Shown here one piece after another: positions 7,608 to 16,462 of a stretch of DNA of 43,821 nucleotides; position 1 is the first letter of the stretch, and every line of letters starts with the position of its first letter. The stretch comes from a virus (lineage: Duplodnaviria > Caudoviricetes), in IMG/VR virus record IMGVR_UViG_3300030376_002994, positions 1 through 43,821 of that record. The stretch is one strand, 5' to 3'. The notes below the pieces were generated by a model. The model saw nothing but the letters and a program-made list of their open reading frames with translations, was not told the origin of the DNA and made no database searches. Position numbers and translations under genes: made by a program.

Positions 7608-7916
7608 CTATAACCTATGGGGATTATATAACTTATAAAAAAGGGTTAGTTCTTCTCCTGTCACAATTAACACTAGGGTTTTTAATAGGTAGCCATTTTT
7701 TGTTTCAATTAATTCACAGTTTGGCCATTCGGAATGGTTTATAAATCCACCTAATGGTGTTCTTATAAGTCCATGTTTGAAAGCATTATTATCAGTCTTA
7801 TAATGTGTAATGCCTAGTAACTTTCCTTTACGGATTGGTCTTGTTGAAAATAACCCAAGGCCCTCTACTTTAGAAGGCCTTATGGTTAAGTGTTTAGGTA
7901 ATGGCTTATAGCTCAT
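7608..7916 (-). CDS. SET-domain protein (putative lysine methyltransferase)
   Basis: IRPSKVEGLGLFS, GFINHSEWPNC, GEELTLFY; start moved to MSYKPLP. Confidence 0.9.
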   Translation of the reverse strand: MSYKPLPKHLTIRPSKVEGLGLFSTRPIRKGKLLGITHYKTDNNAFKHGLIRTPLGGFINHSEWPNCELIETKNGYLLKTLVLIVTGEELTLFYKLYNPHRL

Positions 7917-8472
7917 CAGGATATTTCCATGTCTGTTCAGGAACAAAGTATTCACTACTTGGCAAATTCCAATGTTCCATAATGTCATGTTGTGTTATAT
8001 CATTACCTACATGTATACTGTCTGCTATATATTTAAACATTAACTTAGTAGGTTTACCTTTATTAAATCCTTTAATAAATTTACCGTCTACTAAATTCTT
8101 TAATCGTTGTAAGTAGTGAAGTGTTTGTTGTGTAACTTCACCACCTCTTTTCTTTCTTAACTTTCTAGTCATTAAATTGTTAGACACAACACTTTCATTG
8201 TAATCAAAAGTATATCTATCATTAGCTAATGTTTTAATAGAAGAAAGTTTATGACTAAATTCTAATTGTAAAGATAAACTGTCTTTAATTAATTTATATC
8301 TAACATATACTGGATTATTATCTTTAGTTAATCCTAAAAATCTTTTTCCTCCATACCAAGATATATTATTTAATTTTTCTTTAGTATCTTTAACTTTAAC
8401 TTTATTTTTGTCTATTTTATTATTAGCTTTTCTTTCTGTTAAAGTATAGAATCTAGTATTGATAGCTGTCAT
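7906..8472 (-). CDS. basic hypothetical protein
   Basis: Lys/Arg-rich ORF coupled to its neighbours; RBS GAGGAG. Confidence 0.7.
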   Translation of the reverse strand: MTAINTRFYTLTERKANNKIDKNKVKVKDTKEKLNNISWYGGKRFLGLTKDNNPVYVRYKLIKDSLSLQLEFSHKLSSIKTLANDRYTFDYNESVVSNNLMTRKLRKKRGGEVTQQTLHYLQRLKNLVDGKFIKGFNKGKPTKLMFKYIADSIHVGNDITQHDIMEHWNLPSSEYFVPEQTWKYPDEL

Positions 8473-10736: not shown

Positions 10737-11795
10737 CTATATATCTTCTAACTTAACTAAGTATTCTGCAGTCACACCAGTACCGTCTTTACAAAACAGT
10801 AACCACTGACATGGCCTGCCCATACTAGCTAGTTGTTCTAATGCATATGTGTTATAACTCTCTGTAGAACCATTAACCCATAACCTTATATCATTAAGAT
10901 ACATTGTTGTAGGTGTATGAAAATGGCCTGCAATAGCGTTATCAAAGTCTGGCATAAGACCGTTAGCTGCTAATGTTTTCCAACCTTGTAGCTTCTTACC
11001 GAAACCATACCATGGAAATCCACTAAAACCTCTTACATTGTCTCCGTGCCATAATAAAAACTTACATTCTTTACCTAAATTAGCTATGTCAAACCAATGG
11101 TTATCTCCTGTACTATCAGGTATTGTAAATTTTATACGCTTTTCATCTCTAAATATCATCTTCATTATGTTACCTAGCATCCTATCAGCGTTAGAATCTG
11201 GATGATAGTCTTTACGACTACGACCACCTAAATGGCCATGATTACCTATAACCCAATGAACATCTACTTCATTAAAGTTAGCAAGTAATATATCAAGGAA
11301 CTTACCTATAATTCTAGGGCCGTCAACAGTAACTTGTTTGTATAAACTGCTGTCAATTAAATGTGATTGGCCTGGAAAAATAAGCTCACCTTCTATAATA
11401 TCTCCAACTGCAAACACTGCAACTTTATTAACAGGATGAGATTGTCTTTGTAGATTAGTAATGTCAACTATCTTATGTGCATAAGCTATTACTCTTTCTT
11501 CTGCTACTTCTGAGTTATAATCAGGTGTAACTTTAGCAAGTTGTATGTCACTTAATACTGCAATAGCTATTTCTTCATCCTTAGTTTTCTTTAAGTTGCG
11601 TGGCTTTGGTATAGAAGGTTTGTCCCAAGTCCGAAGATTGGCCGATACTGCCTCATAAACGGCATCAACCATATCTTCTTTCTTCTTTTTGGCCTTCTCA
11701 AGTTGCTTTAATATATTTAAATTATCTTTTTTTAAATCTTGAACGACTTGAGATTCAATTTCAACCATTAATTTATCAATATCCTTCTTAGGCAT
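10737..11795 (-). CDS. calcineurin-like metallophosphoesterase
   Basis: LSDIQ, GDIIEG, GNHG, WHGD, GHFH motifs; N-terminal coiled coil. Confidence 0.9.
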   Translation of the reverse strand: MPKKDIDKLMVEIESQVVQDLKKDNLNILKQLEKAKKKKEDMVDAVYEAVSANLRTWDKPSIPKPRNLKKTKDEEIAIAVLSDIQLAKVTPDYNSEVAEERVIAYAHKIVDITNLQRQSHPVNKVAVFAVGDIIEGELIFPGQSHLIDSSLYKQVTVDGPRIIGKFLDILLANFNEVDVHWVIGNHGHLGGRSRKDYHPDSNADRMLGNIMKMIFRDEKRIKFTIPDSTGDNHWFDIANLGKECKFLLWHGDNVRGFSGFPWYGFGKKLQGWKTLAANGLMPDFDNAIAGHFHTPTTMYLNDIRLWVNGSTESYNTYALEQLASMGRPCQWLLFCKDGTGVTAEYLVKLEDI

Positions 11796-12030
11796 TATCT
11801 CTCTCCAATCGTTGCAAATATCGTCTCATTGCTGATTCAGATATGACAATACCATAGTTTTCTTCAAGTAATCTTGATACAACATATGGTCTCATCTTAA
11901 CTTTTTCTTTTACTACCCTGTCTTTTAAAGCAATCCAAAAAGGTTCTGCGTCTGGCGTAATTTTGCCTTCAACATAATTACCTTTTTTTCCGTTATGTGC
12001 TTCATCAAGCATGTCATTTATATTTACCAT
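11788..12030 (-). CDS. small HTH-like protein, leaderless; start moved to MVNINDML
   Basis: VVSRLLEENYGIVISESAMRRYL; the longer ORF-track start runs through the RNA gene. Confidence 0.7.
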   Translation of the reverse strand: MVNINDMLDEAHNGKKGNYVEGKITPDAEPFWIALKDRVVKEKVKMRPYVVSRLLEENYGIVISESAMRRYLQRLERDNA

Positions 12031-12037
12031 ACAGATA

Positions 12038-12065
12038 AGTATAGTAGATTTGAGATGTATGTAAA
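12038..12065 (-). promoter_or_regulatory. sigma70-type promoter
   Basis: TTTACA-16 nt-TATACT, 7 nt before the ATG at 12030. Confidence 0.65.
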
Positions 12066-12081: not shown

Positions 12082-12159
12082 TGGTGGAGGTGGCCGGAAT
12101 CGAACCGGCGTTGGCATAAACAACGGGCAGCTGTTATATGCTCTAACCTGGACACCCCC
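12082..12159 (-). ncRNA. mini-tmRNA-like RNA: tRNA-like domain only, Ala acceptor identity, no D-stem, no mRNA-like domain
   Basis: GGGGGTG/CACCTCC acceptor with G3:U70, discriminator A, encoded CCA; T-arm GCCGG-TTCGATT-CCGGC; 11-nt stemless D-loop TCCAGGTTAGA; single 10-11 bp hairpin in place of the tmRNA body. Confidence 0.85.
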
Positions 12160-12166
12160 AACAGAT

Positions 12167-12228
12167 GGAATACCGTGCTTAAGGTCGGAAAGGAGTACAA
12201 CCCACTGTTGCCAGTTGCACGGTACTCC
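12167..12228 (-). ncRNA. three-way-junction small RNA with GCAA tetraloop and anti-SD loop
   Basis: P1 GGAGTACCGTGC/GCACGGTATTCC; P2 ACTG-GCAA-CAGT; P3 GGTTG-TACTCCTTTC-CGACC; G:U pairs favour the minus strand. Confidence 0.7.
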
Positions 12229-12243
12229 TAATATTATCCTTCC

Positions 12244-13755
12244 TTATACTAGCTGATTTAATTGTAAAGCAAAGTGTTTTACTTCATCTATATCTGCTAG
12301 TCTCGTTATTCCTGAACGCTTGCATATTTCTATACAATCTTTTAATAAGTTAGTTGAGTTCTCATTATGTAATCCAAATACATACATATCACTCACCCAT
12401 ATTCTTTTTTGTGGTTGTTTAGATAGCCATTGCAAAGCAGGGCCATCAACTAAGTTACCACCGCCAGTCCATCTATCTAAATAGTCTTGACTAACTCTCT
12501 TACCATTGCGTCCTATAATTCTTAACGCACCTGATTCCCATGTTCCACCTCTATCGTTATACATAGCTATAGTAACTGCAGGAAGCAGTTGCATTATTTC
12601 TAGTATATCTTCGCCACTAAAGGACATAGAACCTGACGCATCTATTAGTATCGTTCCACCATATACTCTTTGTTTTTGTTTGAATACTTTTTTATCCACA
12701 CACCAACGATTCATATACTTTGGATTTACACCGTAATCCATAGGTCTATATTCTCTACCACCTTTAATCTTCGATTGTAAATTAACACTAAGATGTGGTT
12801 TAAATATATCCATTTTACCCCATTTACCCATATTATTTGGGTCTGGTACATAGTGCATATTCCCACCATCGTTAGCTTTCGAAAATATATCTTCTTTGTT
12901 ACGGTTATTTAATTCATCAAGAGTCATTTCATCAAATTCACCTTCTTGTGGTGACTTAGCTTCCATAGTTTTCTTATTAGCAGATAAAGCTTTTTCTTTA
13001 GCTTCTTTAGCTTTGCGTGCTGACTCTAATACCTGATGTTCTTCAGGTTTTTCATTAAATTCGTCCATTAATTTATTTAAAATTAATGCAGCCTTTCTAG
13101 TTTTGGTATACTTACTAGTTTTTCTACCATATCCTCTCGTATAACTAATTATTCTATACAAATTTAATGCTTGACTATATGCAAAATTCATTTGCTGTAG
13201 TCTAAGCTTAGTCATTTGATTTGGATGGTTTGGAAAGTCCTCTTGCATAGACAAGAGTTCTTTCATCGATTGTAAAATTGCTGCATCTTCTAAGCTATCA
13301 TTTTTGGCATAATAATATCTGTTACTATTACTTGGTTTCATATTCATTAGCATCCAAGCAGTCATTTCAAATACTGAACCGTTATAAAAAACACTTTCTG
13401 TATGTTCTAAAAACTTAGAAGGACATATTGTCCAATCATCAATCACTACATCCATAACAGATAAGTTATAATTAACACGAACTTCTTCGCATATTTCTAC
13501 ACATTTTTCTGATTCGTTTTCTTTTAACTTACCTATAGTTTTAGGACTCCACTTAGCATGGCCAAGTTCATGTCTTCTAATCATTTTGTTATGGTCACTA
13601 CCACACAATATACATATCTCATCACTTGTAGGTACATACATTTCGTGTGATAGGTTAGATGTTCTAGGTTGAGTTGTATCTTCAAATATTTTCCAAGGTC
13701 CCTCTCCAGATGCTATTTCTGGAAAGGGTATCTTGTTACTCTTCTTCTTGTACAT
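12244..13755 (-). CDS. CobT-like VWA protein with N-terminal HExxH metallopeptidase-like domain
   Basis: RRHELGHAKWS...EEVRVN; MIDAS motif ILIDASGSMS; VSD. Confidence 0.85.
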   Translation of the reverse strand: MYKKKSNKIPFPEIASGEGPWKIFEDTTQPRTSNLSHEMYVPTSDEICILCGSDHNKMIRRHELGHAKWSPKTIGKLKENESEKCVEICEEVRVNYNLSVMDVVIDDWTICPSKFLEHTESVFYNGSVFEMTAWMLMNMKPSNSNRYYYAKNDSLEDAAILQSMKELLSMQEDFPNHPNQMTKLRLQQMNFAYSQALNLYRIISYTRGYGRKTSKYTKTRKAALILNKLMDEFNEKPEEHQVLESARKAKEAKEKALSANKKTMEAKSPQEGEFDEMTLDELNNRNKEDIFSKANDGGNMHYVPDPNNMGKWGKMDIFKPHLSVNLQSKIKGGREYRPMDYGVNPKYMNRWCVDKKVFKQKQRVYGGTILIDASGSMSFSGEDILEIMQLLPAVTIAMYNDRGGTWESGALRIIGRNGKRVSQDYLDRWTGGGNLVDGPALQWLSKQPQKRIWVSDMYVFGLHNENSTNLLKDCIEICKRSGITRLADIDEVKHFALQLNQLV

Positions 13756-14509
13756 TTTTCAAACTAGTATCGTTAACATTCACATCAGATAATTTGATAG
13801 CGTCCAAAAGTTCACTACCTCTTTCACCGAATATCAATTCAGCTGCCATTTTCATGCCAACACCTTTTTGTTGTAACTCAAAGTATTCTCTCCAAGCTCT
13901 AACAGATATTCTTTCTTCCATATCTTCTGATAATGATGTATCACTTATTACTTGATGCCAAGTTTTAGGAAACATACTTAATGCCATAGGATGTATGGTA
14001 TCAACATGTATCTTCACTGGGAACCTATCTTTAAGTGCCATTGGTAGGCTCTCTGGTAGGCTGTTAGTAGTAGCAATAACATTAAAACCTTTCTTAGGTC
14101 TTACTGTTTCTTTGTCGTCATTATTTAATGTCAACTGTGCTATATCTTTGTCATCAAGTATAGCATGCAAGAATGTCATAGCATCAGGACTAGCGTGGTC
14201 AATCTCATTGACTACTAGTCTTCCACCTTTTCTCCATGCTTGTATAGCAATACCGTCATGCCATTCAAATCCACCATCTGAGTTAGGCTTATAAAAGCCT
14301 TCAAGGTTTGCACTAGCAGTGTCCTCTGTCATGGTTATTTGATATACATTAGGTTCGCCTTGTAGGTTTAATCCTACTTTATTGGTTGCAGCAGCATATG
14401 TTTTACCAGTTCCTGGTGGCCCATATAGTAATATTCTATCGCTATTACCAATTGCTGTCTTTACTTTGTCCCAACAAGTTACTACTTTCGTAGCTGTATC
14501 TTCACTCAT
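13736..14509 (-). CDS. MoxR/CobS-type AAA+ ATPase (AAA_5)
   Basis: Walker A GPPGTGKT, Walker B variant LVVNEID, IATTN, ALKDRF; start moved to MSEDTATK (RBS GGGAG). Confidence 0.92.
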   Translation of the reverse strand: MSEDTATKVVTCWDKVKTAIGNSDRILLYGPPGTGKTYAAATNKVGLNLQGEPNVYQITMTEDTASANLEGFYKPNSDGGFEWHDGIAIQAWRKGGRLVVNEIDHASPDAMTFLHAILDDKDIAQLTLNNDDKETVRPKKGFNVIATTNSLPESLPMALKDRFPVKIHVDTIHPMALSMFPKTWHQVISDTSLSEDMEERISVRAWREYFELQQKGVGMKMAAELIFGERGSELLDAIKLSDVNVNDTSLKNVQEEE

Positions 14510-14520
14510 TGTTCTCCCTT

Positions 14521-14838
14521 CTAGAATGTGTTGTTCACATCCTGTAGCTTTACAAAACGACAATATATTTCTACAATGCCGTCTTCATTTTTCCTTTGTT
14601 TGACTTCAAACATACCTTTATCTTTAAGATGTCTGATATTAGTTTGAGTCATATTTTCTATATTTTGTTTAACACCTGATATCCAATTAGTAGATTCAGC
14701 TATCATATACCATTCATTAGGTGTAGATAGTAATGTTTCTACTTTATCATCTGTTAAAATTGTAGGTGTTTTACCTTTCCTACTATGATTAGAAGCCGGT
14801 GGCGTTTTTCGTACTAATTTGTTACTCTGTATCGCCAT
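14521..14838 (-). CDS. hypothetical protein
   Basis: ORF in operon, overlapping upstream gene. Confidence 0.7.
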   Translation of the reverse strand: MAIQSNKLVRKTPPASNHSRKGKTPTILTDDKVETLLSTPNEWYMIAESTNWISGVKQNIENMTQTNIRHLKDKGMFEVKQRKNEDGIVEIYCRFVKLQDVNNTF

Positions 14839-16116: not shown

Positions 16117-16232
16117 ATAGATAGCTCGTAACACACGATTCGTTTGCAAGCGTGGATTTTCAACCACAAGCTGTTTTTACTTGCATTCTTCTATTCTTTC
16201 CAAATAGCATTTGTGTGCTACAAGCTACCTAT
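16117..16232 (-). ncRNA. structured RNA element A (20-bp closing stem)
   Basis: ATAGGTAGCTTGTAGCACAC/GTGTGTTACGAGCTATCTAT with 3 G:U; internal CTATT/AATAG, TGCAAG/CTTGCA and GTGG-TTGAAAAT-CCAC stems. Confidence 0.7.
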
Positions 16233-16272
16233 TTCAGTCATATTGCAGCAGGGTTACAACAATATTCTTACT

Positions 16273-16400
16273 ATAGATAGCATGATATGCTCAAGGGAAA
16301 GTATGTTAGGCCACAAAGGAGGCAGCTAATGATTAACTGTCTTAGTTACTTACCTTCATACTTTTTAGCGTATAAACCTCAAACATATCATGCTACCTAC
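16273..16400 (-). ncRNA. structured RNA element B (24-bp closing stem)
   Basis: GTAGGTAGCATGATATGTTTGAGG/CCTTGAGCATATCATGCTATCTAT with 5 G:U; internal AAAGTATG/CATACTTT and CAGTTAA/TTAGCTG stems; contains CCTCCTTT. Confidence 0.7.
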
Positions 16401-16462
16401 AACTATATTCGCAAAGTAGATATTTATTTATACTTCTGTTGTAGATAGCACTGCTAGTTACA

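What the first reader, a model, noticed from the sequence alone, without database searches (positions are those of the whole stretch)
12082..12159. Natural mini-tmRNA: alanine-accepting tRNA-like domain with no message
Seen (minus strand): GGGGGUG-UCCAGGUUAGA-[GCAUAUAACAG CUGCCCG UUGUUUAUGC]-CAAC-GCCGG UUCGAUU CCGGC-CACCUCC-A-CCA. It has a perfect acceptor stem with G3:U70 and A73, a perfect T-arm, and a stemless D-loop with GG ending in GA. Established: this combination defines the tmRNA TLD bound by SmpB and charged by AlaRS; full tmRNAs carry roughly 300 nt more, with pseudoknots and a tag ORF. Message-less tmRNAs are described from some protist mitochondria. Here both tmRNA ends are joined by a 28-nt hairpin. 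Inference: a phage-encoded SmpB/EF-Tu decoy, or a tag-less ribosome rescue RNA that blocks SsrA tagging of phage proteins. I do not know a described phage example.
Basis: partly seen in the sequence, partly recalled or inferred. Interest (0 to 1): 0.92.

Follow-up and report, generated by a model that had tools for sequence, protein, structure and literature searches.

The report
Phage tmRNA head without a message
This phage carries a 78-base gene that copies only the tRNA-like head of the bacterial ribosome-rescue RNA (tmRNA), a form published for one mycobacteriophage that recurs in many uncultured phages, and it likely competes with the host's rescue-and-tag system.

Summary
Observation confirmed: a 78-nt tmRNA tRNA-like domain (TLD) with the message replaced by a 28-nt hairpin, in a 43.8-kb phage, probably of marine Actinobacteria. 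It is not a private deletion: 13 of 27 related phage records carry it, at two sites, with compensatory changes; none has a full tmRNA at this site. It is not new in kind: mycobacteriophage DS6A has a published 'TLD only' tmRNA (PMC4131195, PMC11915505), which my model finds, and this scan met the form before on other DNA (7 notes). The scale is not in the papers my searches reached: about 980 IMG/VR stretches estimated against 9 no-CDS standard genes among 97,179 curated tmRNAs. G3·U70 stays in 101 of 103 perfect-stem loci when not forced, so alanylation probably matters. Likely mechanism: alanine-charged competitor for host SmpB and stalled ribosomes that lowers SsrA tagging; main rival: tag-free poly-alanine rescue. 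This copy has a non-canonical SmpB-side joint. Expression not shown. A separate conserved three-way-junction RNA with an anti-Shine-Dalgarno-like loop and no Rfam match lies 7 nt upstream.

The parts
12082..12159 (-). TLD-only (message-less) tmRNA gene, 78 nt
   Evidence: model R1 64.9 bits (the window was in the training set)
12153..12159 (-). acceptor stem 5' strand, G3 of the G3·U70 alanine determinant
   Evidence: sequence; G3·U70 in 101 of 103 perfect-stem loci when unforced
12143..12152 (-). stemless D-loop with GG, ending UUAG (variant of the usual UUCGA)
   Evidence: joint analysis
12113..12142 (-). central hairpin standing in for tmRNA helix 2 and everything inside it; no conserved anticodon, no tag frame
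12110..12112 (-). connector AAC; its middle A is the equivalent of E. coli A334
   Evidence: A invariant in 59 of 59 rows of A1, where it was not forced; A334 contacts SmpB (PMC8363625 passages)
12093..12109 (-). T-arm, 5 pairs and 7-nt loop
12082..12092 (-). acceptor 3' strand, discriminator A and encoded CCA
12167..12228 (-). separate conserved three-way-junction RNA motif with a 10-nt loop UACUCCUUUC (12188-12197); neighbour, not shown to be part of the same system
   Evidence: fold z -5.34; 25 of 28 pattern hits fold the same way; present in relatives with and without the TLD; no Rfam match
12244..13755 (-). upstream co-oriented 503-aa gene (DxSxS motif read from the sequence; vWA label recalled), after an AAA_5 ATPase gene at 13736-14563; context only
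   Evidence: no Pfam hit for the 503-aa protein, phrog_33218 unknown function
12038..12065 (-). promoter-like site 7 nt before the start of the downstream 80-aa gene (11788-12030); context only
   Evidence: 10 of 12 consensus; 5 sites found against 4.0 expected, so weak

Best explanation
The gene holds only the tRNA-like head of tmRNA, and its RNA is likely charged with alanine by the host and likely competes with the host's full tmRNA for SmpB and for stalled ribosomes, which would lower SsrA tagging and proteolysis during infection. Shown here: the structure, its conservation by compensatory change, retention of G3·U70 and of the A334 equivalent, absence of a tag frame, absence of a phage SmpB. 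Inferred: co-transcription with the leftward operon and release by RNase P and 3' trimming; alanylation by host AlaRS; binding of host SmpB and EF-Tu; entry into ribosomes stalled on nonstop mRNA, where it can add alanine but has no stop codon to end on; net effect a dominant-negative brake on trans-translation, with release left to the host's back-up rescue factors.
For: Covariation in 59 hand-picked sequences: 93.7% of cells paired against 68.5% shuffled and 46-57% in slid controls; all 7 pairs of the central helix change on both sides. Within the clade plus DS6A, 95.0% paired. G3·U70 in 102 of 108 loci with 6 or more acceptor pairs and 101 of 103 with 7, while pair 5:68 takes six forms. SmpB family in 0 of 50 carrier records, 0 of 23 near-complete ones, so the partner must be the host's. 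No shared partner gene in 80 loci; neighbours are ordinary head, packaging and DNA genes; 63 of 80 follow a co-oriented upstream ORF. Published: a similar molecule inhibits tmRNA strongly, perhaps by titrating SmpB (Mao et al. 2009 as cited in PMC4131195 and PMC11915505; the original was not available); TLD plus SmpB alone enters ribosomes and transfers alanine (PMC2481249, PMC3929946 passages); loss of ssrA restored lambda infection in a recoded E. coli, so tagging can hinder a phage (PMC6207430 passages).
Against: No expression, charging or binding data. The cited inhibition occurs whether or not the RNA is chargeable, so a pure sponge does not explain why G3·U70 is kept; one clade member (L144) has A3-U70. 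The joint facing SmpB is non-canonical here: last D-loop base and first connector base are G and A (15 of 94 dereplicated TLDs), a form seen in 0 of 75 anchored full-length tmRNAs, so SmpB binding may differ. Some phages need trans-translation (lambda-immP22 c2-dis, PMC2481249 passages) and about 1300 IMG/VR stretches hold full tmRNAs. The gene is dispensable in the clade: absent from 3 of 6 near-complete relatives.
Confidence: 0.55

Rival explanations
1. Tag-free helper of ribosome rescue: charged TLD plus host SmpB adds one or many alanines to stalled chains (template-free poly-alanine tail) and so helps clear ribosomes for phage translation, rather than blocking the host system.
For: G3·U70 kept in 101 of 103. 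TLD plus SmpB makes polyalanine in vitro without template (PMC2481249, PMC3929946 passages). Message-less tmRNAs persist with SmpB in mitochondria and two plastids (PMC11915505). Four Patescibacteria-group genomes hold a TLD-like copy beside a full tmRNA and SmpB.
Against: No stop codon or release factor is supplied; none is a recurrent neighbour. A similar RNA is reported to inhibit tmRNA in vivo. Poly-alanine tails are themselves ClpP degrons in B. subtilis (PMC8373112 passages), so proteins would not be spared. L144 lacks G3·U70.
Confidence: 0.25
2. Decoy for host defence enzymes that recognise tmRNA or tRNA elbows, soaking them up during infection.
For: Strong virus enrichment (about 980 viral stretches against roughly 90 in 185,579 genomes), patchy presence and relocation within one clade, as is common for counter-defence genes (own knowledge). 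CoCoNuT systems carry SmpB-like domains predicted to bind tmRNA (PMC11090510 passages).
Against: That target is only predicted. No link to any defence system was tested here. Alanine identity would not obviously be needed.
Confidence: 0.1
3. A phage attachment site for integration at host ssrA, or a processing signal (RNase P cut site) in a polycistronic transcript.
For: ssrA is a common integration site (PMC11915505 abstract). 63 of 80 loci follow a co-oriented ORF, and in 10 of 104 unique sequences a TAG closing an open frame of 55 or more codons shares its G with base 1.
Against: No integrase among the 43 window proteins scanned; tyrosine integrase in only 7 of 50 carrier records, 6 of 23 near-complete (serine integrases not searched). 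An att core needs no 5' acceptor strand, D-loop or covarying central helix, and the T-stem differs between close relatives. Neither role needs G3·U70.
Confidence: 0.06
4. A degenerate alanine tRNA or a decaying pseudogene.
For: tRNA-like length (78 nt); RF00023 local scores of this size are also reached by probable tRNAs; L125-L127 and L138 have altered D- and T-loops.
Against: No D-stem, ARAGORN calls nothing; the central loop differs in sequence and length among clade members, with no conserved anticodon; stems are kept by compensatory change across vWA-like proteins only 48-50% identical.
Confidence: 0.04

Closest known systems
TLD-only (CDS-less) tmRNA of Mycobacterium phage DS6A (PMC4131195 Table 2, tmID 11587; PMC11915505)
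   Same: Standard gene order, 7-bp acceptor with G3·U70, stemless D-loop, closed central hairpin, T-arm, no tag frame; similar Rfam score (43.2 bits); found by model R1, which was built without it, at 58.9 bits.
   Different: 78 nt against 83 nt; encoded CCA against CUA; joint UUAG/AAC against UCGA/CAC; simple bulged hairpin against two-part helix; low-GC phage with no integrase hit, whereas DS6A has an annotated tyrosine integrase about 10 kb away.
Standard bacterial tmRNA (Rfam RF00023)
   Same: Both ends align to the model; alanine determinants and A334 equivalent kept.
   Different: 326 model positions (pseudoknots, resume codon, tag frame) replaced by 31 nt; joint type absent from 75 anchored full-length genes.
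Message-less organellar tmRNAs (mitochondrial RF02544; about 65-bp Mallomonadaceae plastid genes, PMC11915505)
   Same: TLD without a tag frame.
   Different: Those are the organelle's own, mostly permuted, genes with a dedicated SmpB; this one is a phage extra beside a host that presumably has a full tmRNA, and no RF02544 match was listed.

Membership tests
TLD-only tmRNA (DS6A kind) | 7-bp acceptor with G3·U70 and discriminator A | tested here: met
TLD-only tmRNA (DS6A kind) | stemless D-loop with GG, helix 2 closed by a short loop, 3-nt connector, T-arm, standard (unpermuted) order | tested here: met
   R1 scores DS6A 58.9 bits
TLD-only tmRNA (DS6A kind) | no tag reading frame or pseudoknots | tested here: met
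   only 31 nt between the aligned ends
TLD-only tmRNA (DS6A kind) | canonical SmpB-contact joint (G19, A20·G333, A334 in E. coli numbering) | tested here: inconclusive
   A334 equivalent kept; joint is the G·A variant, 15 of 94; a purine sits at the G19 position in either register, but the register cannot be fixed without a structure
TLD-only tmRNA (DS6A kind) | expressed, alanylated, bound by SmpB, inhibits tmRNA | not testable with these tools
   RNA-run contigs gave no usable cover
Standard tmRNA (RF00023) | mRNA-like domain with resume codon, tag frame and pseudoknots | tested here: not met
   score 45.4 below gathering 47
Permuted two-piece tmRNA | T-arm/CCA piece upstream of the 5' acceptor strand, separate coding piece | tested here: not met
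   order is standard; only a chance alpha_tmRNA match at E 0.31 inside the terminase gene
tRNA-Ala | D-stem and conserved 7-nt anticodon loop | tested here: not met
Bacterial Y RNA (YrlA; considered from recall) | Ro60/TROVE partner gene and Ro-binding stem | tested here: not met
   no TROVE hit in 43 window proteins; no Y RNA family

The most novel reading that the evidence does not exclude
Around a thousand uncultured-phage records carry an alanine-charged tmRNA head that, with host SmpB, adds template-free alanine tails on stalled ribosomes in vivo, an RNA-only phage takeover of ribosome rescue; in this clade it sits beside an undescribed anti-Shine-Dalgarno-loop RNA, making a two-RNA cassette for control of host translation, and its swapped joint tunes it to the host's SmpB.
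Probability: 0.2. Interest if true: 0.8.

Novelty: new member of a known kind. Interest (0 to 1): 0.5.

Why it matters
A form known in print from one phage and 9 of 97,179 curated tmRNA genes turns out to be of the same order of abundance in IMG/VR as full tmRNAs (about 980 against about 1300 estimated stretches; 38 of 80 listed full ones lie within 1.5 kb of a contig end, as host genes at prophage edges would). ARAGORN misses it. If these RNAs brake trans-translation they are natural inhibitors of a pathway pursued as an antibiotic target and a new kind of RNA host-takeover tool; if they add alanine tails they give an in vivo case of the template-free reaction so far shown in vitro. Natural variants in one clade (with, without, A3-U70, swapped joint) make the question directly testable.

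Tried and rejected
Expression: the one run search gave 8 marine runs with small shares; laying 4 of them gave only contigs, none covering the gene in the three runs on record as RNA (one 32-nt piece at the 3' end runs on into unrelated sequence); this is no evidence either way. Cultured test phages: blastn hits in mycobacteriophage Bricole and Stenotrophomonas phage Marzo scored only 36.1 and 33.6 bits with R1 (neighbouring tRNAs 28-32) and lack a pairing 5' acceptor strand nearby, so they are 3' ends of longer or two-piece genes, not TLD-only; no cultured phage covered 80% of either of two queries, which blastn would miss for so diverse a family (it missed DS6A among listed rows). Genome scan: 99 of 120 hits were 3' ends of full tmRNAs and were dropped, and 8 more were set aside by eye as probable such ends or imperfect stems. 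First viral scan: 35 of 120 failed the stem filter, mostly Ala and Tyr tRNAs, and further tRNA-like rows and duplicates were removed by eye before alignment A1. Ro60/Y RNA idea: no TROVE domain. Stop-codon overlap as a nonstop-mRNA switch: seen in 10 of 104 but several are one family, in which L331 keeps a whole stop codon; not pursued. Mao et al. 2009 was not held. The supplement search of PMC11915505 found none of four terms in the one file held, so the taxonomic split of the 9 no-CDS genes was not seen. The host was not identified by a direct test. No serine-integrase search and no metagenome scan were run.

Full report
Observation. It folds into a 7-pair acceptor stem, a central hairpin and a T-arm at -31.2 kcal/mol, z -3.13, with 1 of 200 shuffles as good. 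Rfam's tmRNA model matches both ends at 45.4 bits (gathering score 47; E 5.7e-15 for the window) with 326 positions replaced by 31 nt; one lower-scoring match of the same clan was left out. ARAGORN finds no tRNA or tmRNA in the window. The Rfam score is not diagnostic by itself, since tRNA-sized matches in bacterial genomes reach 44.6 bits; the case rests on anatomy and relatives.

Context. The window is a whole 43,821-base virus record of 30-39% GC with terminase, P22-like portal, SU10 capsid, holin and transglycosylase genes. The best capsid matches, at 26-29% identity, are mostly phages of Mycobacterium, Propionibacterium and Bifidobacterium (22 of 24 records), so an actinobacterial host is likely; a marine low-GC lineage is my inference and was not tested. 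The gene lies in the leftward block, 84 nt after a 503-aa gene that follows an AAA_5 ATPase, and 51 nt before an 80-aa gene with its own weak promoter-like site. No integrase or SmpB hit was found among the 43 proteins scanned.

Relatives. The 503-aa protein gave 27 viral loci. Nine carry the element at the same site, four (L141-L144) carry a homologous one about 1.6 kb upstream of that gene, 13 have the site without it and one is cut short. Over whole records model R1 finds one copy in 13 of 27, and in 3 of 6 near-complete ones. No relative has a full tmRNA at this site. On a tree of 19 of the 28 proteins the two site groups are each one starred clade and nine non-carriers form a third, with L145 outside: the gene moved and was gained or lost, order unresolved. 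In eight clade members plus DS6A 95.0% of cells pair, against 77.4% shuffled and 48-59% in slid controls. The central loop has no fixed sequence or length, which excludes a tRNA. L144 has A3-U70.

Family. A pattern for a short TLD hit 120 loci in 8 of 64 parts of IMG/VR, about 980 stretches estimated; stretches are not species. Of these 120, 119 have 7 of 7 acceptor pairs; 4 drew an ARAGORN tmRNA call, though R1 places a complete 78-85-nt element in each; of the other 116, 86 have a central helix of 5 or more pairs against 14.8% of shuffles. In 59 hand-picked sequences 93.7% of cells pair (68.5% shuffled, 46-57% slid) and all 7 central pairs change on both sides; invariant pairs there were forced by the pattern. 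All viral loci together gave 146 distinct sequences of 62-98 nt. In 185,579 genomes the same pattern gave about 810 stretches, but 99 of 120 were ends of full tmRNAs and 13 were TLD-like with perfect acceptor stems, roughly 90 in all; of 8 examined one lies among capsid genes, one beside an integrase and one among housekeeping genes. Full-length tmRNAs in a 30-nt length band number about 1300 viral stretches (119 of 120 real); by my hand count 38 of the 80 listed lie within 1.5 kb of a contig end.

What is under selection. With pairs 3:70 and 4:69 left free (CCA, A73 and the outer pairs still forced), 102 of 108 loci with 6 or more acceptor pairs and 101 of 103 with 7 keep G3·U70, while pair 5:68 takes six forms among 91 distinct sequences. 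The A before the last connector base, equivalent to E. coli A334, is invariant in A1; A334, U17 and G19 contact SmpB (PMC8363625, passages). The last D-loop base and first connector base covary (A with G 43, G with A 15 of 94 dereplicated sequences; MI 0.387, 0 of 5000 permutations, relatedness not corrected). The window has the G/A form, seen in 0 of 75 anchored full-length genes. It may be a flipped purine pair or a shortened D-loop; SmpB binding is therefore likely but not assured. SmpB is absent from 50 of 50 carrier records, a tyrosine integrase present in 7 of 50. Among 80 loci no partner gene recurs beyond ordinary phage modules, 63 follow a co-oriented ORF and 4 lie in tRNA arrays.

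Mechanism. Best reading (0.55): the RNA is cut from an operon transcript, alanylated, binds host SmpB and EF-Tu, and competes with host tmRNA, lowering SsrA tagging. Every step after the anatomy is inferred. Support from print: a similar molecule inhibits tmRNA whether or not chargeable, perhaps by titrating SmpB (PMC4131195, passages; PMC11915505, results section read whole; both cite Mao et al. 2009, which I could not see); TLD plus SmpB suffices for ribosome entry and polyalanine synthesis in vitro (PMC2481249 and PMC3929946, passages); ssrA deletion restored lambda infection of recoded E. coli (PMC6207430, passages). Against: conservation of G3·U70 is more than a sponge needs and fits tag-free rescue (0.25) as well; some phages require trans-translation; poly-alanine tails are degrons (PMC8373112, passages). 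Defence decoy (0.1; PMC11090510, passages), att site or processing signal (0.06) and decayed tRNA (0.04) are weaker. No expression evidence was obtained.

Comparison with the known. DS6A's gene lies at L148:8479-8561 (83 nt, 43.2 bits) and scores 58.9 bits with R1, which was built without it. The window's gene meets all testable features of that kind and fails those of standard tmRNA, permuted tmRNA, tRNA-Ala and Y RNA. The 2025 database lists 9 standard no-CDS genes of 97,179 and searched RefSeq viruses, not IMG/VR. Five paper searches on short, tag-less or phage tmRNA and one on phage inhibition of trans-translation showed, at the level of listings, no report of a widespread phage class; the library lacks most subscription papers, and one supplement file gave no matches. 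This scan's own notes report the same form and the same DS6A link on seven other genomes; I had reached DS6A before reading them, and two of them prompted the joint analysis.

Neighbour. Seven nucleotides upstream lies a 62-nt three-way junction (12167-12228) with a GNRA hairpin and a 10-nt loop UACUCCUUUC; z -5.34. A pattern scan gave 28 loci, 25 folding into the same junction with differing stems, one (L669) with an alternative best fold and two chance hits. It has no Rfam match, no earlier scan note shown and no paper in one search. The loop is complementary to GAAAGGAG, which stands before a start codon in L141; its likeness to the anti-Shine-Dalgarno end of 16S rRNA is recalled, not tested. 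It occurs with and without the TLD, so it is a separate element and deserves its own follow-up.

Verdict. Real, conserved, a new member of a known but barely studied kind. Interest 0.5: the form is published and its function untested here, but the scale, the selection on alanine identity and the natural variants make the question tractable.

Noticed in passing
window 12167-12228 (-); L643-L670: Conserved three-way-junction RNA with GNRA hairpin and loop UNCUCCUUUC, complementary to GAAAGGAG ribosome-binding sites; 25 of 28 pattern hits fold alike; no Rfam match. Candidate undescribed phage small RNA.
   Followed up: partly
L144:1317-1392 (+): Clade member with A3-U70 in place of G3·U70 but intact stems: a natural probably unchargeable variant.
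   Followed up: partly
L125:3874-3952 (+), also L126, L127, L138: D-loop GG changed to AG and T-loop to UUAAACU together; either compensatory elbow change or early decay.
   Followed up: no
L182:4001-4070, L239:301-370, L162:4001-4071, L240:298-362: Patescibacteria-group genome bins hold a TLD-like short gene in addition to a full tmRNA and SmpB; L182 lies among housekeeping genes next to pheS.
   Followed up: partly
L284, L294, L319, L355, L356, L289, L304, L308, L359, L272: An upstream TAG shares its G with base 1 of the TLD, so RNase P release would leave a nonstop mRNA; not kept in relative L331.
   Followed up: partly
L469, L498: Identical 91-nt TLD-shaped elements with G3-C70 and a perfect acceptor stem.
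   Followed up: no
L016, L023, L042, L015, L028, L061 and others: Many phage tRNA-Ala(UGC)-like genes with very short D-arms and, in one group, a shifted acceptor register; some are missed by ARAGORN.
   Followed up: no
window 7608-7988 (-): A SET-domain protein gene in a small phage (PF00856, E 2e-08).
   Followed up: no
window 16170-16460: Long non-coding gap with a 21-nt match to a repeat found twice in the L141 region upstream of its TLD; possible regulatory or origin region.
   Followed up: no
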